This document shows, in pieces, positions 15,651 through 64,000 of a stretch of 64,000 nucleotides of DNA (its first letter is position 1; the number at the start of each line of letters is the position of its first letter). The stretch is from Candidatus Micrarchaeota archaeon. Its GTDB lineage: Archaea > Micrarchaeota > Micrarchaeia > Anstonellales > Bilamarchaeaceae. Below the pieces are notes generated by a model, which searched no databases, had not been told where the DNA came from, and was given only the letters and a program-made list of their open reading frames with translations. The position numbers were made by a program, and so were the translations under genes. The stretch lies in the NCBI GenBank assembly GCA_018304385.1, contig JAGVWJ010000014.1, forward strand, positions 13,621 through 77,620, read 5' to 3'.

Positions 15651-17768
15651 TTATTTAAACAATGTTGATATGGTGCAGGATTTATAATAAGCACTGTCAC
15701 CATGCAAAAATGCTTTAGTATCATATATAGTTGAAAGAGCAGGTTTTTCTGGAACTGCAGAATAAGCAAGCACAAACGAGGTAGTATTCTTAAGCTCAAT
15801 CTTGCAATCTGATTTATCTTTTACTATGTCAGCAGAGGAAGACTTAACAGTACACGTATCACCAAGCTCATAGATAAGCACAGACTTATTATTAGCACGT
15901 AAACTATCTGCAATCATGTTGGCGCAGGATTTCATATTGTTGGCAGCATCATAATTAACACCCTGCAATTCTAGAGCAATTGCAGAGGACTTTTTAGTAT
16001 TAATATCATATATAAACTCTTCAATATCAGCTGCTGATGCAGTTTTAGTTAAGAATACATATAAAAAGACAGAGAATATTAAAAGGCCAATAATAAATAT
16101 TCCATATCCGCCTAATAATACAAATTTTACTAAACCAGTTGCTAGTCTGAATTTTGCAAAGATACCAAAGAAAACAAATAAAGATAGGGCTGCTAGAGAT
16201 AAGAATGTAATAGCTGCTACGCCTCCAAAAGAAAATAGCTTGTTAGATGCGAAATCACTTAGTGAAGTCAATTTAGTCAGAGATACAAGGCTTGCTAAAC
16301 CGCTATTTATGCGTCTTGCGAATGACCTGAATTTAGAGCTTGCTAATTGGAATAAACCCTCTTTTTGTATCTTTAACAATTCACTTGCCTGCTGTGAAAC
16401 ATTTGAATATGAAGCTGAAAGCTGCTGCAGCTCATTATCTGTTAGCCCTTTTGAAAAACTTGCATCTAAATTATTACTAACATTTTTCAATTCATCTAGT
16501 CTTTTTCTATCTTTGCTACTCAAATCTTTTGTATCTAGAAGGAAGATTATTGCATTGGCAGTACTCTTTGTACTTAAAGATTGGTTGTACAGTTGTAATA
16601 CCTTTGGAATTAAAAGTTTGGTTTCAGAAATAGCCTCTTCATAGTCTGCAAGATCCTGCTCGATTGTTGAAAAATTGCGAAGTTCAATACTATTGTTTAT
16701 TTTATTTGTAAGGTCATTTATTTTATTTAGGTTTATTCTTAAGGATTCATTGGAAACACTGTTTAATGCAGCAGATGTATCTGCAGAAACTTCACCTGCA
16801 CTTACTGATAATGGATCAAATAATGAAGAAAACTGGATTGCCTTTGTTTCAGAGGTCCTAAACAAGAATCTGGAAACTGTGTGGTTGTACACCTCAAAAC
16901 TTATAGATTTGTGATTTACATAAGGTGCAGATTTGCTTAAAATTGAATTCGCATTGTTTTCTAAAAGATTAAGTTGACTACCATTAAAAGATATGTCTGG
17001 GCACATCGCAAAACACTTTTCATCAATACATCTCTGAACTTCTGCAGGGTCAGTAGTTGGTGTTCTGACTCTTGTATTTTCTAAGGTAGATTTATGCGTT
17101 CTTAATTGAGGGACAATTGATTTTAGTTCGGTTAATGAGGATGCCAAGTTTTCATCGTTTATGTTTTCCATTAAAGATAACGCATTTCTAACTAGTTTAT
17201 CTGTTTCATCGCTTGCCTTTCCATATTCTTTTATTAAAGCAATCGTATCTTCAAAGCTTATTGTTTTTTTAATGCCTTTTGCATAACTCGCTGAATATAA
17301 GACTAGCGCTACTTTATAACAACCTTCATCACTATCACAATATATATACCCTGAACCATATTTGATCCCATTTAAAAGTAAAATTTGTCTACAAGCATAT
17401 TCTTCTTTGCCAAGAAATCTTCCACCATCATTTCTACTAAGATTATAATCTAAAATTGCCTGTTTTAAAGATGCCAACTCCTCTGTTGAAGGATATGTTG
17501 TTTGCTTATAATACGCACCAAGAACACTTTTTATGTCGTTTTCAGTCTGCAATGGCTCTCCATTTTTTAGAAGGAAGAGGGGTTTTCCATCTAATTGGAC
17601 TATAGAATAATTAATATTATCCAAGGTAAAGCTGCTTGCATTTAGTCTAGTTGCATTTTCTTTGTCATACAAAAAGTTTTTAGCATCAAAAGCAGCAAAA
17701 CTAAAATAGGATAAAAGTAAAAGATAAAATATACACCTTGCCGCCTTGAACATACACATATTCCCCAC
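15651..17768 (-). CDS. large membrane protein (extracellular domain + 4 TM + C-terminal 4-Cys domain)
   Basis: 705 aa with an N-terminal signal, a hydrophobic block around residues 500-590, and Cys-containing N- and C-terminal ectodomains. No family recognised. Confidence 0.55.
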   Translation of the reverse strand: MGNMCMFKAARCIFYLLLLSYFSFAAFDAKNFLYDKENATRLNASSFTLDNINYSIVQLDGKPLFLLKNGEPLQTENDIKSVLGAYYKQTTYPSTEELASLKQAILDYNLSRNDGGRFLGKEEYACRQILLLNGIKYGSGYIYCDSDEGCYKVALVLYSASYAKGIKKTISFEDTIALIKEYGKASDETDKLVRNALSLMENINDENLASSLTELKSIVPQLRTHKSTLENTRVRTPTTDPAEVQRCIDEKCFAMCPDISFNGSQLNLLENNANSILSKSAPYVNHKSISFEVYNHTVSRFLFRTSETKAIQFSSLFDPLSVSAGEVSADTSAALNSVSNESLRINLNKINDLTNKINNSIELRNFSTIEQDLADYEEAISETKLLIPKVLQLYNQSLSTKSTANAIIFLLDTKDLSSKDRKRLDELKNVSNNLDASFSKGLTDNELQQLSASYSNVSQQASELLKIQKEGLFQLASSKFRSFARRINSGLASLVSLTKLTSLSDFASNKLFSFGGVAAITFLSLAALSLFVFFGIFAKFRLATGLVKFVLLGGYGIFIIGLLIFSVFLYVFLTKTASAADIEEFIYDINTKKSSAIALELQGVNYDAANNMKSCANMIADSLRANNKSVLIYELGDTCTVKSSSADIVKDKSDCKIELKNTTSFVLAYSAVPEKPALSTIYDTKAFLHGDSAYYKSCTISTLFK

Positions 17769-26950: not shown

Positions 26951-26985
26951 CCTTGGCCCAAAGCTCATGGCTCATTGCTCATGGC
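26951..26985 (-). repeat. heptamer array, GC type, 5 units, centre of the sufC/sufB divergent region
   Basis: Minus strand: gccatga gcaatga gccatga gctttgg gccaagg, followed directly by the ttttatttacata of leader copy 4. Confidence 0.85.
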
Positions 26986-27047
26986 AGTATAATTTAGGTA
27001 TGCCTAAATTTTTAAACTTAAGCATAGATATTCATATAGTTGATTTT

Positions 27048-28439
27048 ATGGCACTGGAAGAACTGCAGGATTATAAGTATGGTTTTAGTGATGACCACAA
27101 ATATACTTACAAAACTGAGAAGGGATTAAACGAGGAAATAGTAAAACAAATTTCAAAAATAAAGGGTGAACCAGAGTGGATGCTAGAAAAGCGCTTACTA
27201 GCTTATAAAATATTTAGGAGCAAACCAATGCCAACGTGGGGTGCTGACTTAAGTCCAATTAACTTTGATGATATTACCTATTATGCTAGACCAACTGATA
27301 AGAACGTTGATGCATGGGAAATGGTTCCAGATGATATAAAGAAAACATTTGATAAGATTGGAATTCCAGAAGCAGAAAAAAAATTTTTAGGCGGTGCGAG
27401 CGCACAATATGATAGCGAAGTTGTGTACCATAACTTAAAGAAAGAATGGGAAGAACAAGGAGTTATATTCACGGATATGGACTCTGGATTAAGAGAATAC
27501 CCTGAAATAGTAAAAAAATATTTTGGAACAGTTATACCGATTACAGATAATAAATTCGCTGCGCTTAATACCTCCGTATGGAGTGGTGGCAGTTTTGTTT
27601 ATGTCCCAGAAGGCGTACATGTTGAAATTCCATTGCAGGCATATTTTAGAATAAATGCAGAGAAAGTCGGGCAGTTTGAAAGAACTTTGATTATTGCTGA
27701 GAAAGGAAGTAAAGTACATTACGTGGAGGGGTGTACCGCGCCAATCTATTCCGCTTCTTCTTTGCATAGTGCAGTAGTTGAATTACTCGCAATGGAAAAT
27801 TCGCATATACGATATACTACCATTCAAAACTGGAGCAATAATGTTTTCAATCTAGTTACGAAACGCGCAGTTGCTTATAAGAATGCATTTGTTGAATGGC
27901 TCGATGGGAATATAGGTTCTCAAATCACAATGAAATTTCCATGTGTTATGCTTAAGGGTGAAGGAGCACGCGGTGATGTAGTCAGCGTTGCATATGCTGG
28001 CAAAGGACAATGCCAAGACGCTGGCGGGAAAATGATTCATCTTGCACCAAATACTACTTCTAGAATTATTTCGAAAAGTATTTCGCAGGGTGGTGGACGC
28101 ACTAGCTATCGCGGTCTTGTTAAAATTGTTAAAGGTGCAAAGAACTGCAAAAACTTTGTACAATGCGATGCATACATGCTTGATGAAAAATCAAGAAGCG
28201 ATACCTATCCAACCGTGCAGGTAGATGAGGATACTGCAACTATTGGCCATGAAGCAAAAGTAGGCAAAATTGGCAATGATAAACTATTCTACTTAATGTC
28301 TCGCGGAATTCCAGAACAAGAGGCACTCGCAATGATTGTACAGGGATTCTTAGAACCATTCACAAAGGAATTGCCAATGGAATATGCTGTTGAATTGAAT
28401 AGATTAATTCAAATACAATTAGAAAATGCTGTTGGATAG
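27048..28439 (+). CDS. sufB: Fe-S cluster assembly protein SufB
   Basis: Start trimmed to [13 protein letters not shown], because the upstream ORF part is a heptamer array plus a TATA-like box. SufB motifs run throughout ([17 protein letters not shown]). Confidence 0.93.
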
Positions 28440-31146: not shown

Positions 31147-31278
31147 GGGATCGTGAGGTAACCTGGCATCCTGCGAGCTTGGGGTGTTCGTTATCTGAGT
31201 GCGCTTTTTAGGTAAAAAGTGCCCAAAAACTGGGACGCTAACTAAAAAGTCCCAGAAATTCAAATCTCAGCGGTCCCA
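31147..31278 (+). tRNA. tRNA-Pro(GGG) with a 59-nt non-canonical intron in the T-arm/T-loop
   Basis: Hand fold. Acceptor GGGATCG (31147-53) pairs with CGGTCCC (31271-77), followed by discriminator A. The D-arm is AGG..GG..CCT. The anticodon arm is CGAGC-TTGGGGT-GTTCG (anticodon GGG at 31181-83, G37). The variable loop is TTAT. T-stem CTGAG (31195-99) pairs with CTCAG (31266-70), with T-loop TTCAAAT (31259-65). The 59 nt at 31200-31258 interrupt position 53/54 (or 54/55). The mature length is 73 nt. Confidence 0.8.
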
Positions 31279-47566: not shown

Positions 47567-48967
47567 ATGAAAGATGTGATAGTTATGACTGAAAACATTT
47601 GGTTCCATTGGGAAAGAAATGCAACGTTCACGCCAATTTTTATGTGCATGGAGGCATGGGGCCAGCCTACCGCAAAATATTGGGGAGTTTCATGGCCAAC
47701 AACAATTTGCGTGTGGAAAAACGATATTATTTCCTGGAATAATAAAAACCAGGACTTCTATGAAATGGGAAAAATATTAGTTGAGAATTTTCTAAAGAAC
47801 GGTTGGGGTAAATTTGAAGATGAGATAAACGAAACAGCTATAAAAATAACTAAGTTTATGAGAGAATGTAATCCGATTGCTGACATGAGCGAACATGAAT
47901 TAGTAAGGAAATTTAAGGAATTGCACAACTTATGGATACACTGGTTTGTGCTAGGAGTTACAGAACCTCCAGGTGTTTACGGAGAAAAAATACTTGAAGA
48001 ATTATCAAAGGATAAAAAGAATTTTTCATTATTAACATCACCTATTAGAAAATCATTTTCAAGGAGAGAATTTGAAGATCTTTTACAAGTTAAAAATGAT
48101 AAAGAACTGGAGAATCATGCAAAAAAGTATTTTTGGCTTCATAATAATTATTTCACTACAGAAACCATTAGTAAGGAATTTTTCCAAGATGAATTGAAAA
48201 AACTAAGAGAGAAATATTCTGATTCAGCTAACTATCTAAATGAAGTAGAGAGAAATGATAAAGAGCTGTTAGTAGAAAAAGAAAAAATAATGAATCAGTT
48301 AAACTTTAGCGAACGAGAAAAGAAACTGGTGACCTTGATGGAATTCTTTGCATGGTTTCAGGATTATAGAAAAGAATACACAATGCAAATGCTTCACTAT
48401 CTAGATAAAATACTCGAGGCAATTGGCAAGATCCACGGACTTAGCCTAAAAGAGATGAAACATGTACTGCCAGAAGAAATATTGAATAACAAGATAGATA
48501 GAAATTTAATAAGAGAAAGAATGGAACATTTCATGGTTATATGGGACAGTGATCGCGCTAAGTTTGAATTAATCTTAGATACAGATGAAATTGAACAAAA
48601 GAAAAAACAAATTTTTGGAGAGAAGCAGCAAACTAAAGAGATAATAGAAATAGAAGGTCAGATAGCAAGCAAGGGCCGCTTAAAAGGAAGAGCTTTTGTA
48701 ACTATGAGTGCGCACGATGCTAAAAACATTAAACCAGGTGAGATACTCGTAACTTCAATGACATCACCTGATTTTATAGTTGCAATAAAAAGAGCAGCTG
48801 CAATAGTGACAAACGAAGGCGGGATACTCTGCCATGCAGCTATTGTTTCCAGAGAGTTTGGAATTCCATGCATTGTGGGAACACAAAATGCAACTCGATT
48901 AATTAAAAATGGGGATTTAATAGAAGTAGATGGGAATCATGGATTTGTGAGAATACTGAAAAATTAA
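47567..48967 (+). CDS. PEP-utilising-enzyme mobile (swivel phosphohistidine) domain protein with unknown N-terminal 350 aa
   Basis: C-terminal GEILVTSMTSPDFIVAIKRAAAIVTNEGGILCHAAIVSREFGIPCIVG matches the PEP-utiliser swivel domain, including the phospho-His. It starts 4 nt after the HD gene. Confidence 0.7.
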   Translation: MKDVIVMTENIWFHWERNATFTPIFMCMEAWGQPTAKYWGVSWPTTICVWKNDIISWNNKNQDFYEMGKILVENFLKNGWGKFEDEINETAIKITKFMRECNPIADMSEHELVRKFKELHNLWIHWFVLGVTEPPGVYGEKILEELSKDKKNFSLLTSPIRKSFSRREFEDLLQVKNDKELENHAKKYFWLHNNYFTTETISKEFFQDELKKLREKYSDSANYLNEVERNDKELLVEKEKIMNQLNFSEREKKLVTLMEFFAWFQDYRKEYTMQMLHYLDKILEAIGKIHGLSLKEMKHVLPEEILNNKIDRNLIRERMEHFMVIWDSDRAKFELILDTDEIEQKKKQIFGEKQQTKEIIEIEGQIASKGRLKGRAFVTMSAHDAKNIKPGEILVTSMTSPDFIVAIKRAAAIVTNEGGILCHAAIVSREFGIPCIVGTQNATRLIKNGDLIEVDGNHGFVRILKN

Positions 48968-49362
48968 TATCTAAAAACAGTTTTATTATCCTTAAAGGTT
49001 ATTTCAAAATTATCAAAAACGTCTTTTCTTCCCAGAACCAAAGGAACTTCCTCAATAAGACACCATGCAATATCTGCTTCGATTTTTTTATTACCAATCT
49101 GAAGATTTATTTTTTTAAGAACAATTTGAACATTCTGTTCACCAACACCTTTGACTTCTTTTATCGAATCATTATCAATCTTAAAACCAAGATAATCACC
49201 AACTGATTTTGGAATCAAAGTAAGATCAGCACCAGAGTCTACAATCATGTGATATAATAATTCCTTGCCCTCATTTTGCAGTATTACATCAGCGAACGGT
49301 CTTAAGATTTTTCCAAAAATTCGTGAATGGCCTTCTCTAAATTTGAATTCTATTTCTTGCAT
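48964..49362 (-). CDS. retropepsin-like aspartic protease
   Basis: VDSGADLTLIP (D-S-G-A) active-site loop, 132 aa. Confidence 0.7.
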   Translation of the reverse strand: MQEIEFKFREGHSRIFGKILRPFADVILQNEGKELLYHMIVDSGADLTLIPKSVGDYLGFKIDNDSIKEVKGVGEQNVQIVLKKINLQIGNKKIEADIAWCLIEEVPLVLGRKDVFDNFEITFKDNKTVFRY

Positions 49363-53691: not shown

Positions 53692-54846
53692 CTACATTGC
53701 AATTTTAAGGGGTAAAACAACAAGATTATTTCTGAAGAAGTCTATTAGCTCATCTTTTATCTCATCAACTGTTATTTTTATCTCAAAATTTTCTATGTTA
53801 AAATCATTCATCAATAAATTTATATAAACCCAGAAATTGTAAAGAAGCATAGAAATTACAAAGAAAAAATACCTGACATTTCCTTCTTTGCATGAAGTTT
53901 TTATTCTAAACTGATCATGAACTCTATGAGCTGTTTCAATCCCCCAACGTTGTTTGTACAAATCACTTAAGAGTAAAACCTCATTCCTATATTCTGAAAC
54001 AGGAATATTTGTAACGTATCCATAAATTTTCTTTTCTTCATGCTCATTATCTTCGATAATTACAAGATCAATCCATTCAGATTCTTTGTCTGAATTACTT
54101 ATTTCATAGGCCTGAAAGACAGCAGGCAACCCTTTACATTCCTTTAGTACTCTTTCAAAATGAGAATCCTGTTTTGCTGGCATTAGAAAGTTAATTCTTT
54201 TTTCCCTAAACAGTGCAAAAACATCAGTTTCATAGAATTCCCTGTCAAGAAGAACCAAATCAGGCTTTATCCAATATGCATTAAGAAATTCCAGTGCTTT
54301 GTTTATTAGTGCAATTTTGTCATCTCCTCTGTAAACAGGATAAGCAAATAGAAGAAACCTTATTCCATTTACTACTAATGCAACTGTAAAAAACTTGAAA
54401 CAGTAGTAAGTGCCATCCTTTGGCTCATAGCCAGTTACATATTCACAGTTTTTATCTCCATAAAATGCTTCTGGGGTAAAATCAAACGCAATTACTACTT
54501 TTATGCTTGGGAATCTTCTCTGAATAAGCTTGATTGTTCTCCTACTTACAAATGTTCTCATCATTCTTTCTATGTTTTCTATTGTTGTTTTGTCTTTTAT
54601 ATGCAATAAAGCATCATCAGCAGAAGGATAATTACCTGTTTTTGATCTGTTTTCTGTTGATTTATTGCTTATAGCTGCATCAACAAACAGTTTCATTATC
54701 TGGGCTGAGTTATATCTTGCATTGGCTCTAAACTGGAAAAGATTGTAATTCAGCAGCTCACGGCTGAGCTTTTCCAGTATATTCTTCTCTTTTTCCTGTG
54801 AGCTAAAGGGTTTTAAGTTTTCTGGGAGGAAAACCATAGTAGCCAC
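53692..54846 (-). CDS. DDE transposase (IS4 superfamily, ISH3-like)
   Basis: C-terminal YKQRWGIETAHR (the Y-R-E-K region of IS4-type transposases) plus DREF and LLDREFY acidic motifs. The start is GTG at 54846 or ATG at 54837. Confidence 0.8.
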   Translation of the reverse strand: MATMVFLPENLKPFSSQEKEKNILEKLSRELLNYNLFQFRANARYNSAQIMKLFVDAAISNKSTENRSKTGNYPSADDALLHIKDKTTIENIERMMRTFVSRRTIKLIQRRFPSIKVVIAFDFTPEAFYGDKNCEYVTGYEPKDGTYYCFKFFTVALVVNGIRFLLFAYPVYRGDDKIALINKALEFLNAYWIKPDLVLLDREFYETDVFALFREKRINFLMPAKQDSHFERVLKECKGLPAVFQAYEISNSDKESEWIDLVIIEDNEHEEKKIYGYVTNIPVSEYRNEVLLLSDLYKQRWGIETAHRVHDQFRIKTSCKEGNVRYFFFVISMLLYNFWVYINLLMNDFNIENFEIKITVDEIKDELIDFFRNNLVVLPLKIAM

Positions 54847-62859: not shown

Positions 62860-62899
62860 ATGAATATTTAAAATAGGTAACAATAAAAAATATAAATAG

Positions 62900-63079
62900 G
62901 CTCCTGTAATCTAGCCCGGTCAAAAGAGTTTACAGTCTCGAGTCTCGAGTCTTGAACTATTTACTGATAGGATGTCAGACTCTCACTCTGAATACCCGAG
63001 TTCAAATTCAAACTTTTAGGTAAAAGTTTGATCAAAACTGCTTCGTTAATAGAAGCTTATGGAAATCTCGGCAGGAGCG
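62900..63079 (+). tRNA. tRNA-Glu(CUC) with two non-canonical introns (D-loop about 46 nt, T-loop about 59 nt)
   Basis: Hand fold. Acceptor GCTCCTG (62900-06) is perfectly complementary to CAGGAGC (63072-78), followed by discriminator G. D-stem ATCT (62909-12) pairs with GGAT (62970-73). The D-loop AGCCCGGTCAA differs by 1 nt from the canonical archaeal tRNA-Glu D-loop as I recall it. The anticodon arm is TCAGA-CTCTCAC-TCTGA (CTC at 62982-84). T-stem CCGAG (62996-63000) pairs with CTCGG (63067-71), with TTCAAAT at 63001-07. The exons sum to 75 nt. Intervening blocks are about 62924-62969 and about 63008-63066, and the exact junctions are ambiguous by a few nt. Confidence 0.65.
62928..62955 (+). 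repeat. heptamer array, GT type, 4 units, inside tRNA-Glu intron 1
   Basis: gtttaca gtctcga gtctcga gtcttga. Confidence 0.75.
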
Positions 63080-63169
63080 CTTTCTTCTATTCCAGTAACT
63101 GGAATGAAATTGACTAAAATCATTCCACCAACTGGAACGTTTAAAAATCCTTCTATTCTATAACTACTT

Positions 63170-64000
63170 ATGAATGACGAGGAATTGCTGAACGAGCTTA
63201 TATCCCAAAACCCTTGGTGGAAAGCAGGAAAAATCGAACTACCAAAATACATAATAGAGCGTAACCTGTTTCCTTTGCTTAAAAAAGAATTAAGAGAAAA
63301 AGAGGTTATTGGGTTAGTTGGGTTAAGATCAGTTGGTAAGACTACACTCATGAAACAACTTATCAACCAGCTTCTATTAAATGAAATAGATTCAAAGAAC
63401 ATTATTTATTTCTCATTTGACGGATTCAAAAAAGAAGAAAAAATGATTAGAAGACTTCTTACACTATATTCTCATAACATACTAAAAAAAACCTTTGAAG
63501 AGCTTGACCAAAAAGTTTACTTATTCTTCGATGAAGTTCAGAAGATATCTGAATGGGGAGAAGAAATCAAAAGTTATTATGACAAGGGCCTAAAATTGAA
63601 GTTTGTTATTTCTGGTTCCTCTAGTATGAATATTCTTAAGGGAAGTGGGGAAAGTTTAGTCGGCAGGATCTTAATCCACAAAATTTATCCATTCGTATTT
63701 AGGGAATTCCTTAGGTACAAGGGTTTAGAACTTGAAAAAATTGATCTTTGGAATCCTGTTTACCCGGTGGAAGGGGAAAAATTGAGCATTTTGTTTGAAC
63801 AATATGCCGAATTAGGTGGGTTTCCTATTTTATATGATACAAGTGAAGAAAGAAAGAAACCATTATTAAAAAGCATGATTGATCTGACTTTTTATCGAGA
63901 CATAGTTAATATATTTGATATCAAAAGAACCGATATCCTAGAAGGCCTTTTCTATATTTTTACAAAAGAATCAGGAAATGTAATCAGTTACGCAAATCTT
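63170..64000 (+). CDS. AAA+ ATPase (archaeal ATPase / DUF4143-type), 3' end outside window
   Basis: Not in the ORF track because no stop is reached. The frame is open from ATG 63170 to the window end. It has NPWW, Walker A GLRSVGKTT and Walker B YLFFDEVQ. Confidence 0.8.
   Translation, partial: MNDEELLNELISQNPWWKAGKIELPKYIIERNLFPLLKKELREKEVIGLVGLRSVGKTTLMKQLINQLLLNEIDSKNIIYFSFDGFKKEEKMIRRLLTLYSHNILKKTFEELDQKVYLFFDEVQKISEWGEEIKSYYDKGLKLKFVISGSSSMNILKGSGESLVGRILIHKIYPFVFREFLRYKGLELEKIDLWNPVYPVEGEKLSILFEQYAELGGFPILYDTSEERKKPLLKSMIDLTFYRDIVNIFDIKRTDILEGLFYIFTKESGNVISYANL

What the first reader, a model, noticed from the sequence alone, without database searches (positions are those of the whole stretch)
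62900..63079. tRNA-Glu(CUC) with two non-canonical introns (D-loop and T-loop)
A perfect 7-bp acceptor stem joins sequences 172 nt apart. It is supported by a D-loop almost identical to the canonical archaeal tRNA-Glu D-loop as I recall it, a clean anticodon arm (CTC) and a TTCAAAT T-loop whose 3' stem strand lies 59 nt downstream. Removing about 62924-62969 and about 63008-63066 gives a 75-nt cloverleaf. Multi-intron tRNAs are rare. Standard gene finders would probably miss this one, and the ORF track instead shows a spurious minus-strand ORF across it.
Basis: partly seen in the sequence, partly recalled or inferred. Interest (0 to 1): 0.75.

Follow-up and report, generated by a model that had tools for sequence, protein, structure and literature searches.

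The report
Two-intron tRNA-Glu gene in Micrarchaeota
This is a real glutamate tRNA gene of a tiny uncultured archaeon, split by two short introns at unusual places (D-loop and T-loop); that gene layout is already known for this group, but it escapes ordinary tRNA finders.

Summary
Window 62900-63079 (+) encodes tRNA-Glu(CUC) in three exons: 62900-62922, 62969-63006 and 63066-63079. Two introns interrupt it. One is 46 nt in the D-loop (62923-62968). The other is 59 nt at T-loop position 59/60 (63007-63065).

- ARAGORN and Rfam find no tRNA in the window. The spliced 75-mer is called tRNA-Glu(ctc).
- Both junctions fold into 3-4-3 bulge-helix-bulge motifs.
- A blind BHB-plus-ARAGORN scan of the whole window returns only this gene. 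A two-intron hit also turned up in 3 of 40 shuffles, so the scan alone is not decisive.
- The decisive evidence is comparative. Orthologues with identical exons carry each junction uninterrupted: L105 lacks the D-loop intron and L132 lacks the T-loop intron.
- The 5' exon matches 119 other tRNA-Glu loci of DPANN archaea. Their introns cluster at the D-loop, 37/38 and 59/60.

The organism is a Micrarchaeota archaeon. In that phylum's ARMAN-2, 56% of tRNA genes are disrupted, and its endonuclease cleaves both strict and relaxed BHB motifs in vitro. This is therefore a new member of a known kind.

One extra result: the T-loop intron is homologous to introns at 37/38 and 53/54 in orthologues, but not to their 59/60 intron. 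That pattern suggests intron relocation.

The parts
62867..62875 (+). TATA-like box TTTAAAATA, starting 33 nt upstream of tRNA position 1 (putative archaeal promoter).
   Evidence: Read from the sequence. In 121 tRNA-Glu loci the upstream A+T peak is at -38 to -27, and the best TATA-like 8-mer most often starts at -35 to -31. Function is inferred, not shown.
62900..62922 (+). Exon 1 (23 nt): acceptor 5' strand, U8, D-stem 5' strand and D-loop up to GGTCA.
   Evidence: ARAGORN on the spliced sequence and the blind BHB scan. The pattern GCTCNNNTRRTCTAGCCCGGTCAA hits 119 tRNA-Glu loci.
62923..62968 (+). Intron 1 (46 nt) in the D-loop, between the two A residues before the 3' strand of the D stem (about Sprinzl 20b/21).
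   Evidence: BHB: H = CGGU (62917-62920) pairs with ACUG (62963-62966), with one G-U. Bulges are 62921-62923 and 62967-62969. h' is 3 bp (62924-62926 with 62960-62962). h is 2 bp (62915-62916 with 62970-62971) and competes with the D stem. L105, L107 and L127 have the contiguous junction GGTCAAGGATG. L106, L132 and L133 have 12-15-nt introns at the same site ending ACCGAT, GCCGTA and ACCGAG.
62934..62952 (+). Tandem 7-mer AGTCTCG x 2.7 inside intron 1; it accounts for part of the extra length compared with the 12-15-nt orthologous introns.
   Evidence: Tandem Repeats Finder. The exact repeat is found only in contigs of the same locus.
62969..63006 (+). Exon 2 (38 nt): A21, D-stem 3' strand, anticodon arm (anticodon CTC at 62982-62984), variable loop, T-stem 5' strand and T-loop U54-A59.
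   Evidence: Rfam's tRNA model gives only a sub-threshold local hit here (14.6 bits).
63007..63065 (+). Intron 2 (59 nt) at T-loop position 59/60.
   Evidence: BHB: h is the T stem (62996-63000 with 63067-63071). H = UUCA (63001-63004) pairs with UGGA (63060-63063), with one G-U. Bulges are AA|U (63005-63007) and AA|U (63064-63066). L132 has the contiguous junction GAGTTCAAATCTCGG. 59/60 is a known intron site in ARMAN-2.
63008..63038 (+). Conserved intron module: a 10-bp hairpin UCAAACUUUU-AGGU-AAAAGUUUGA followed by UCAAAAC. It starts directly after the 5' splice-site bulge, so it is placed to act as helix h'.
   Evidence: Covariance model R1 scores 40.5 bits, E = 1.6e-6. The same module occurs in introns at 37/38, 53/54 and the D-loop of related tRNA-Glu genes and in other tRNAs.
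63040..63056 (+). Second intron hairpin, GCUUC-GUUAAUA-GAAGC.
   Evidence: Present in the unconstrained MFE fold and in the constrained fold.
63066..63079 (+). Exon 3 (14 nt): U60, T-stem 3' strand, acceptor 3' strand and discriminator G73. No CCA is encoded.
63080..63090 (+). Pyrimidine/T-rich trailer CTTTCTTCTAT (weak oligo-T; possible terminator).
   Evidence: Read from the sequence. Orthologues have T4-T6 runs at the same place. Function is inferred.

Best explanation
The locus is a functional tRNA-Glu(CUC) gene of a Micrarchaeota (DPANN) archaeon, transcribed as a precursor of about 180 nt.

The precursor can fold so that each intron-exon boundary lies in a 3-nt bulge on either side of a 4-bp helix (bulge-helix-bulge). 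For intron 1 the 4-bp helix is D-loop CGGU paired with intron ACUG. For intron 2 it is T-loop UUCA paired with intron UGGA. The T stem is the outer helix of intron 2, and an intron hairpin lies just inside the 5' bulge.

The archaeal splicing endonuclease (EndA) would cut between the second and third nucleotide of each bulge. That releases introns of 46 and 59 nt. An RNA ligase then joins exons of 23, 38 and 14 nt into a 75-nt tRNA, and CCA is added afterwards.

Shown here: the exons, the junctions, the BHB-capable fold, and conservation across relatives. Inferred: transcription, cleavage by EndA and ligation.
For: - The spliced 75-mer is called tRNA-Glu(ctc) by ARAGORN.
- Read directly from the sequence, it has U8, A14, G15/C48, G18G19, U33, A37, G53-C61, U54U55C56 and A58.
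- It aligns without gaps to intron-less tRNA-Glu genes of other Micrarchaeota (best 66/75). The differences include compensatory changes, and A10-U25 replaces G10-C25.
- RNAalifold gives the acceptor, anticodon and T helices (not the D stem), with 10 of 19 pairs showing compensatory changes. The window sequence keeps every pair.
- A blind scan for strict 3-4-3 BHB pairs followed by ARAGORN finds only this gene, with junctions at 62922/62968 and 63006/63065.
- The fold forced to cloverleaf plus both BHBs is -50.4 kcal/mol, against an MFE of -52.9.
- L105, L106, L132 and L133 have exons identical to the three predicted exons (only the discriminator base differs, G or A) but different intron sets. 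L105 has no D-loop intron and L132 has no T-loop intron, so both predicted junctions exist as contiguous DNA.
- In 64 intron-bearing tRNA-Glu loci of relatives, introns cluster at the D-loop (12), 37/38 (54) and the T-loop (23). 56 of the 64 give tRNA-Glu after splicing. Six loci combine D-loop and T-loop introns.
- A TATA-like box lies at the position typical of the family.
- The organism is Micrarchaeota: its SufB is 100% identical to an NCBI Micrarchaeota protein.
- In ARMAN-2 of the same phylum, 56% of tRNA genes are disrupted, including introns at 59/60 and multiple introns. Its epsilon2 EndA cleaves strict and relaxed BHB motifs in vitro (PMC3239211).
Against: - No expression or splicing data exist for this gene.
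- The endonuclease of this particular organism was not found in the window, so its type is unknown.
- The outer helix of the intron-1 BHB has only 2 bp and competes with the D stem.
- The inner helix of the intron-2 BHB is a local hairpin at a three-way junction, not the textbook closing helix.
- The scan that recovered the gene also gives a two-intron hit in 3 of 40 shuffled windows.
- Whether another, uninterrupted tRNA-Glu(CUC) exists in the same genome could not be checked.
Confidence: 0.93

Rival explanations
1. It is a decaying or non-functional tRNA-Glu gene that was broken by two insertions and is no longer processed into a tRNA.
For: Standard finders reject the genomic sequence. The T-loop insert looks like a repeated element found in many places. 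A strain variant carries a further 55-nt insertion inside it.
Against: The exons are identical in five independent contigs whose introns and flanks all differ. A dead gene would not conserve its exons like that. Both inserts keep splice-competent BHB geometry. The promoter-like box is kept. The 55-nt variant insertion lies wholly inside the intron and leaves the BHB untouched.
Confidence: 0.04
2. It is a chance resemblance: with free choice of two deletions, an AT-rich 180-nt stretch can be made to look like a tRNA.
For: 3 of 40 shuffled windows yield some two-intron ARAGORN hit under the same scan.
Against: The shuffle hits have no homologues. Here the 24-nt 5' exon matches 119 tRNA-Glu loci. 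The spliced product is 66/75 identical to real tRNA-Glu genes without gaps. Orthologues show the same exons with other intron sets.
Confidence: 0.01
3. The pieces are not joined by cis-splicing of one transcript. Instead they are expressed as separate fragments, as in split tRNA genes, because the T4 run inside intron 2 would terminate archaeal transcription.
For: Intron 2 contains CTTTT, and its relatives contain T5-T6 runs. Split tRNAs exist in some DPANN and Crenarchaeota (PMC4033280).
Against: All three exons are colinear within 180 nt. No TATA-like box precedes exons 2 or 3. T4 is short for an archaeal terminator. The BHB motifs are formed within one continuous RNA. Orthologues vary intron number freely, as expected for cis introns.
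Confidence: 0.02

Closest known systems
Disrupted tRNA genes of ARMAN-2 (Candidatus Micrarchaeum acidiphilum), e.g. pre-tRNA-Cys(GCA) with a 59/60 intron and pre-tRNA-Pro(GGG) with 53/54 and 59/60 introns (Fujishima et al. 2011, PMC3239211)
   Same: Same phylum. Introns lie at non-canonical sites including 59/60, with more than one intron per gene. BHB or relaxed BHB motifs mark the junctions, and standard finders miss the genes.
   Different: A different tRNA (Glu) and a different site combination (D-loop plus 59/60). The introns are much longer (46 and 59 nt, against 13 nt for the ARMAN-2 tRNA-Cys intron). The host is a neutral-groundwater lineage, not an acid-mine one. The endonuclease of this organism was not identified.
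Multi-intron tRNAs and intron transposition in Thermoproteales (Sugahara et al. 2008; Fujishima et al. 2010, as summarised in PMC4033280)
   Same: Up to three BHB introns per tRNA gene. Similar intron sequences occur at different sites and in different tRNAs, which is read as transposition. Here the 59/60 intron is homologous to 37/38 and 53/54 introns of orthologues and to a tRNA-Pro intron in the same window.
   Different: A different superphylum (DPANN, not TACK) and, going by ARMAN-2, probably a different endonuclease type. The shared hairpin-CAAAAC module is not described in the papers I could read.
Canonical archaeal 37/38 tRNA introns with strict hBHBh' motifs (Marck and Grosjean 2003, as described in PMC4090602)
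   Same: A 4-bp helix flanked by two 3-nt bulges, with the cut after the second bulge nucleotide.
   Different: The introns sit in the D-loop and T-loop, so the 4-bp helix uses D-loop or T-loop bases instead of anticodon-loop bases. The mature tRNA fold and the BHB fold compete.
Box C/D sRNA-bearing intron of archaeal tRNA-Trp
   Same: A long, structured tRNA intron with conserved internal sequence.
   Different: No C (RUGAUGA) or D (CUGA) boxes in either intron, and no Rfam hit.

Membership tests
tRNA (tRNA-Glu isoacceptor CUC) | The cloverleaf: 7-bp acceptor stem, D arm, 5-bp anticodon stem with 7-nt loop, 5-bp T stem with 7-nt loop. | tested here: met
   ARAGORN on the spliced 75-mer. RNAalifold with 20 relatives gives the acceptor, anticodon and T helices, and the window sequence keeps all 19 pairs. 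RNAalifold did not return the D stem (A10-U25, U11-A24, C12-G23, U13-G22); ARAGORN draws it with three full pairs plus one flagged weak pair.
tRNA (tRNA-Glu isoacceptor CUC) | Invariant and semi-invariant nucleotides: U8, A14, G18G19, U33, purine 37, G53-C61, U54U55C56, A58. | tested here: met
   Read from the spliced sequence. All are present, as is the G15/C48 pair.
tRNA (tRNA-Glu isoacceptor CUC) | Sequence similarity to the same isotype in related organisms. | tested here: met
   The 5' exon pattern hits 119 loci, of which 55 are intron-less tRNA-Glu. The gap-free alignment reaches 66/75 identity.
tRNA (tRNA-Glu isoacceptor CUC) | Reaches the Rfam RF00005 gathering score. | tested here: not met
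   The genomic (unspliced) sequence gives only 14.6 bits against 29. This is expected for a gene with two introns outside the anticodon loop. The tool cannot score the spliced sequence.
tRNA (tRNA-Glu isoacceptor CUC) | Expressed, spliced and aminoacylated with glutamate. | not testable with these tools
   No RNA data are available.
Archaeal BHB (EndA-spliced) tRNA intron | A 4-bp helix flanked by two 3-nt bulges on opposite strands, with the splice sites inside the bulges. | tested here: met
   Intron 1: CGGU:ACUG. Intron 2: UUCA:UGGA. Each has one G-U and 3-nt bulges. The definition comes from PMC4090602.
Archaeal BHB (EndA-spliced) tRNA intron | Outer (h) and inner (h') helices of at least 2 bp (the strict hBHBh' form). 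| tested here: inconclusive
   Intron 1 has h of 2 bp, which competes with the D stem, and h' of 3 bp. Intron 2 has h of 5 bp (the T stem), but h' is a local 10-bp hairpin at a three-way junction, not a closing helix. Both fit the relaxed forms accepted by broad-specificity enzymes.
Archaeal BHB (EndA-spliced) tRNA intron | The host encodes a splicing endonuclease able to cut non-canonical sites. | not testable with these tools
   No EndA was found among the window ORFs scanned. The inference rests on phylum-level literature (PMC3239211, PMC5829648).
Archaeal BHB (EndA-spliced) tRNA intron | The intron site is shared with homologous genes, and intron-less alleles show the exact junction. | tested here: met
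   Relatives have 12 D-loop introns and 23 T-loop introns. Contiguous junctions occur in L105/L107/L127 (D-loop site) and in L132 (T-loop site).
Split or permuted tRNA gene | Exons at separate loci or in permuted order. | tested here: not met
   The three exons are colinear within 180 nt.
Box C/D sRNA intron; group I or group II intron | C and D boxes, or a ribozyme core. | tested here: not met
   No Rfam match at E up to 10 apart from the weak tRNA hit. The introns are only 46 and 59 nt, and no RUGAUGA or CUGA pair is present.

The most novel reading that the evidence does not exclude
Intron 2 belongs to a portable BHB-intron cassette that is still moving. Its hairpin-plus-CAAAAC module supplies its own bulge-flanking helix, so the cassette can work wherever an exon helix ends.

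Within a narrow Micrarchaeota clade whose tRNA-Glu(CUC) exons are identical, homologous copies sit at 59/60 (window), 37/38 (L105, L106) and 53/54 (L133). The intron occupying 59/60 in L105 and L106 is unrelated. The module alone also occurs in a tRNA-Pro intron of the same window, in D-loop introns of Woesearchaeota tRNA-Glu, in introns of tRNA-Trp and tRNA-Gly, and in the leader or trailer of other tRNAs of other DPANN phyla. This would extend the intron transposition described for Thermoproteales to DPANN and give unusually close before-and-after snapshots.

Not excluded: recombination or gene conversion between introns, convergence imposed by the endonuclease, or a DNA-level MITE-like element.
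Probability: 0.45. Interest if true: 0.6.

Novelty: new member of a known kind. Interest (0 to 1): 0.4.

Why it matters
For annotation, both tRNA genes in this 64-kb window (Glu and Pro) are invisible to ARAGORN and Rfam. Genomes of these archaea may therefore look as if they lack tRNAs that they in fact have, a problem already suspected for DPANN (PMC5829648).

For evolution, this one gene shows five different intron configurations among close relatives with identical exons. Homologous introns sit at different sites and non-homologous introns at the same site. These are the 'snapshots of intron insertion' that reviews of the field ask for (PMC4033280). The conserved hairpin module gives a handle for finding more disrupted tRNA genes and for testing what makes an intron portable.

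Tried and rejected
- ARAGORN with and without anticodon-loop introns, and Rfam at gathering and at E up to 10, on the genomic sequence. No tRNA was called; there was only a 14.6-bit local hit.
- The MFS ORF with its TTG start was not on record. The ATG start 24 nt downstream was.
- I tested whether the 55-nt insertion in strain variant L009 is a nested BHB intron. Its boundaries are unique and the required 4-bp helix (CAAA with AGCU) does not form, so I treat it as an indel inside the intron (by hand).
- I looked for C/D boxes, and for the module acting as a promoter or terminator. There are no boxes. The module's role in leaders and trailers remains unexplained.
- The 16-nt module tail pattern with 3 mismatches is not enriched in the window (2 hits against 2.6 expected). 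The covariance model was needed to show specificity.
- The covariation count for the module hairpin is partly circular, because my regex demanded pairing at three of the nine pairs. Only the outermost pair (14/15 paired, 4 pair types) is unbiased.
- The Marck and Grosjean 2003 and Sugahara 2007 papers are not held. The BHB definition was taken from PMC4090602.
- No EndA gene was found in the window ORFs scanned with Pfam.

Full report
**What is there.** Window 62900-63079 reads GCTCCTGTAATCTAGCCCGGTCA / 46 nt / AGGATGTCAGACTCTCACTCTGAATACCCGAGTTCAAA / 59 nt / TCTCGGCAGGAGCG. ARAGORN finds no tRNA anywhere in the 64-kb window, with or without anticodon-loop introns. Rfam finds none at gathering score or at E up to 10. 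A local search gives only a 14.6-bit sub-threshold tRNA hit on the middle exon. Read directly from the sequence, it has a 7-bp Watson-Crick acceptor stem, U8, A14, G15/C48, G18G19, U33, A37, G53-C61, U54U55C56 and A58.

**Splice sites.** I used the published definition of the archaeal motif: a 4-bp helix with a 3-nt bulge on each side, where for a 37/38 intron the helix includes the first two anticodon bases (PMC4090602). Both junctions can slide without changing the product, so I placed them by this geometry.
- *Intron 1* is 62923-62968. D-loop CGGU (62917-62920) pairs with intron ACUG (62963-62966). The bulges are CA|A and AU|A. The inner helix has 3 bp. The outer helix has 2 bp and competes with the D stem.
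- *Intron 2* is 63007-63065, which is position 59/60. T-loop UUCA (63001-63004) pairs with intron UGGA (63060-63063). Both bulges are AA|U. The T stem is the outer helix. A 10-bp intron hairpin starts directly after the 5' bulge.
- A fold forced to contain the cloverleaf stems and both motifs costs -50.4 kcal/mol, against -52.9 for the unconstrained optimum.

**Is it more than chance?** I scanned both strands of the window for strict 3-4-3 motifs, about 10,000 candidates. I spliced all single candidates and about 46,000 neighbouring pairs and ran ARAGORN on the products. Exactly one tRNA came out: this one, at the junctions given above. The same pipeline on 40 dinucleotide shuffles gave a two-intron hit in 3 and a one-intron hit in 1. 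The scan alone is therefore worth only about p = 0.08. Chance is excluded by homology, described next.

**Organism.** The window carries ordinary archaeal chromosomal genes: aRF1, EF-1 alpha, ribosomal proteins L11, S9 and S2, AspRS and the SUF system. Its SufB is 100% identical to a protein NCBI names as from a Candidatus Micrarchaeota archaeon, and many of the named hits that follow are Micrarchaeota. The same contig occurs in several groundwater-type metagenome assemblies. In them the 310-nt gap between the MFS and AAA_14 genes that holds the tRNA has no called gene, and the tRNA sequence is identical.

**Comparative evidence.** Most are labelled Micrarchaeota, Woesearchaeota or Aenigmatarchaeota.
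- In 55 loci ARAGORN finds an intron-less tRNA-Glu (CUC or UUC) starting at the match.
- The window's spliced product aligns to these without gaps, best 66/75. The differences include paired changes in the stems, and A10-U25 stands where most others have G10-C25.
- RNAalifold on the window product plus 20 of them recovers the acceptor, anticodon and T helices (not the D stem). 10 of 19 pairs show compensatory changes, and the window sequence breaks none.
- A spliced alignment of the remaining loci places their introns at three sites: D-loop (12), 37/38 (54) and T-loop (23). 56 of 64 give tRNA-Glu after splicing. Ten of the 12 D-loop introns and 8 of the 23 T-loop introns have a full 4-bp central helix. 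Six loci combine D-loop and T-loop introns, two of them with a third intron at 37/38.

**Orthologues with identical exons.** This is the strongest evidence. A metagenome scan with the exact 5' exon added three more loci, L132-L134; L132 and L133 have the window's exons, L134 is more divergent. Each gene below has the window's three exons; only the discriminator base differs (G or A).

| Locus | D-loop intron | 37/38 intron | T-arm intron |
|---|---|---|---|
| Window | 46 nt | none | 59 nt at 59/60 |
| L132 | 15 nt | none | none (T-loop contiguous: GAGTTCAAATCTCGG) |
| L133 | 12 nt | none | 57 nt at 53/54 |
| L105 | none (junction contiguous: GGTCAAGGATG) | 50 nt | 57 nt at 59/60 |
| L106 | 12 nt | 60 nt | 57 nt at 59/60 |

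The short D-loop introns end in ACCGAT, GCCGTA or ACCGAG. That is the same helix-forming position as the window's ACTGAT. The window's version is lengthened by a hairpin that includes a 7-mer tandem repeat.

**Expression signals.** A TATA-like TTTAAAATA starts at -33. Across 121 tRNA-Glu loci the upstream A+T peak lies at -38 to -27, and the best TATA-like 8-mer most often starts at -35 to -31. The trailer is T-rich, as in the orthologues. These signals are suggestive only.

**The minus-strand ORF.** ORF 63046-63402 overlaps only the last 34 nt of the gene. It has no Pfam match and lies antisense to the real AAA_14 ATPase gene.

**Known context.** In ARMAN-2 (Candidatus Micrarchaeum acidiphilum) 56% of tRNA genes are disrupted. 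Introns occur at 59/60 and 53/54, and some genes have two. Its three-unit epsilon2 endonuclease cleaves a strict 37/38 motif and a relaxed 59/60 motif in vitro (PMC3239211). Later work links endonuclease loop insertions in several DPANN lineages to more tRNA disruption, and notes that incomplete tRNA sets there point to undetected disrupted genes (PMC5829648). Genes with up to three introns, and similar introns at different sites, are described for Thermoproteales (PMC4033280). tRNAscan-SE 2.0 searches for such introns by default in archaeal mode, with models trained on Crenarchaeota, Euryarchaeota and Thaumarchaeota (PMC8450103). The finding is therefore correct but is a new member of a known kind.

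**Beyond the finding: a shared intron module.** Intron 2 opens with a hairpin, UCAAACUUUU-AGGU-AAAAGUUUGA, followed by UCAAAAC.
- The same module (variable outer stem, invariant CUUUU...AAAAG, then CAAAA) recurs in introns of related tRNA-Glu genes at 37/38, 53/54 and the D-loop. It also occurs inverted at the 3' end of some introns.
- A covariance model built from 15 copies hits the window twice only. One hit is intron 2 (40.5 bits). The other is weaker (15.2 bits, E = 0.5) at 31199-31232.
- That second hit lies in a 59-nt intron at 53/54 of a tRNA-Pro(GGG) gene at 31147-31278. This gene is also missed by the standard tools and is recognised by ARAGORN after splicing. Its central helix is UCUG:CAGA.
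- In 0.82 Mb of DPANN loci the model gives about 35 hits at E below 0.01. They lie in introns of tRNA-Glu, tRNA-Trp and tRNA-Gly, in the 5' leader of a tRNA-Gln and just 3' of a tRNA-Val.

**Beyond the finding: signs of relocation.** Full-length alignments were each compared with 300 shuffles.

| Window 59/60 intron compared with | Alignment score | Highest shuffle score |
|---|---|---|
| 37/38 intron of L106 | 41 (46/65 identical) | 16 |
| 37/38 intron of L105 | 45 | 15 |
| 53/54 intron of L133 | 44 | 17 |
| tRNA-Pro intron in the same window | 24 | 13 |
| 59/60 intron of L105 | -9 | 21 |

A local alignment also shows that the first 34 nt of intron 2 are 32/34 identical to the start of L105's 37/38 intron. 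Homologous introns at different sites, and unrelated introns at the same site, are what relocation predicts. I cannot tell transposition from recombination between introns or from a DNA-level element. The hairpin's position right after the 5' bulge suggests that it serves as the inner helix of the motif, which would make the intron portable. That is inference.

**Verdict.** Confidence in a functional two-intron tRNA-Glu(CUC) gene is 0.93. It is of moderate interest as an annotation case, and it gives a clean example of intron turnover in Micrarchaeota.

Noticed in passing
window 31147-31278 (+); intron 31200-31258: A second disrupted tRNA gene: tRNA-Pro(GGG) with a 59-nt intron at 53/54 (central helix UCUG:CAGA, bulges AG|U and AA|U). 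ARAGORN and Rfam miss it, and ARAGORN calls it after splicing. Its intron carries the same hairpin-CAAAAC module and the same unusual AGGU loop as tRNA-Glu intron 2. Both tRNA genes recognised in the window are therefore interrupted.
   Followed up: partly
L009 about 16550-16610 (the site corresponds to window 63014/63015); L004 has an N-gap at the same site: One metagenome contig of the same locus carries a 55-nt insertion (CCCGATTGTTGCAATGCAACAATGGGCATCTTTTTCCAAATATGGAAAAAGCTTG) inside the first hairpin of intron 2. Another assembly has a scaffold gap exactly there. The insert has two hairpins of its own, one of CUUUUU...AAAAAG type, but no BHB at its ends. This is a strain-level length polymorphism confined to the intron.
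   Followed up: partly
L093 5021-5051, L094 1311-1343, L027 3736-3768: The hairpin-CAAAA module also sits outside introns. It lies 3-10 nt upstream of position 1 of a tRNA-Glu and of a tRNA-Gln, and directly after the 3' end of a tRNA-Val, all in Nanoarchaeota-, Woesearchaeota- or Aenigmatarchaeota-labelled MAGs. No explanation yet; leader or trailer processing, a terminator, or a remnant of a mobile element are all possible.
   Followed up: partly
L105 305-337 (-), L106 7034-7066 (+), L090, L107, L025: Some introns carry the module twice in inverted orientation: hairpin-CAAAAAC ... GUUUUUG-hairpin. The whole intron is then dyad-symmetric, and the two A-rich and U-rich tails can pair. L105 and L106 differ by a compensatory C-G to U-A change in that hairpin.
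   Followed up: partly
window 62934-62952; L130 and L038 introns: Intron 1 contains 2.7 tandem copies of AGTCTCG. Introns of two other Micrarchaeota tRNA-Glu genes (L130 at 37/38, L038 in the T-loop) contain similar GTCTYGR heptad runs. The best local alignment of intron 1 is to L130 (score 30, shuffle maximum 27), so the link is weak.
   Followed up: partly
window 53692-54846 (-): A DDE_Tnp_1 transposase gene is present in the window and in contigs L006 and L008. It is absent from the otherwise identical contigs L001/L007 and L009, so this is an insertion-sequence polymorphism in the population.
   Followed up: partly
window 48945-49041 (+): A sub-threshold Rfam hit to a box C/D snoRNA family (sn2524; 27.5 bits against a gathering score of 44; E = 3.8). 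It could be an archaeal C/D sRNA or noise.
   Followed up: no
homologues of window 26967-28439 (P0005, P0006, P0009, P0055): Several close SufB homologues are 650-851 aa long and carry extra domains (PF14528, PF14890, PF13403) that are probably intein or homing-endonuclease insertions. The window's SufB is 463-490 aa and has no such insertion.
   Followed up: no
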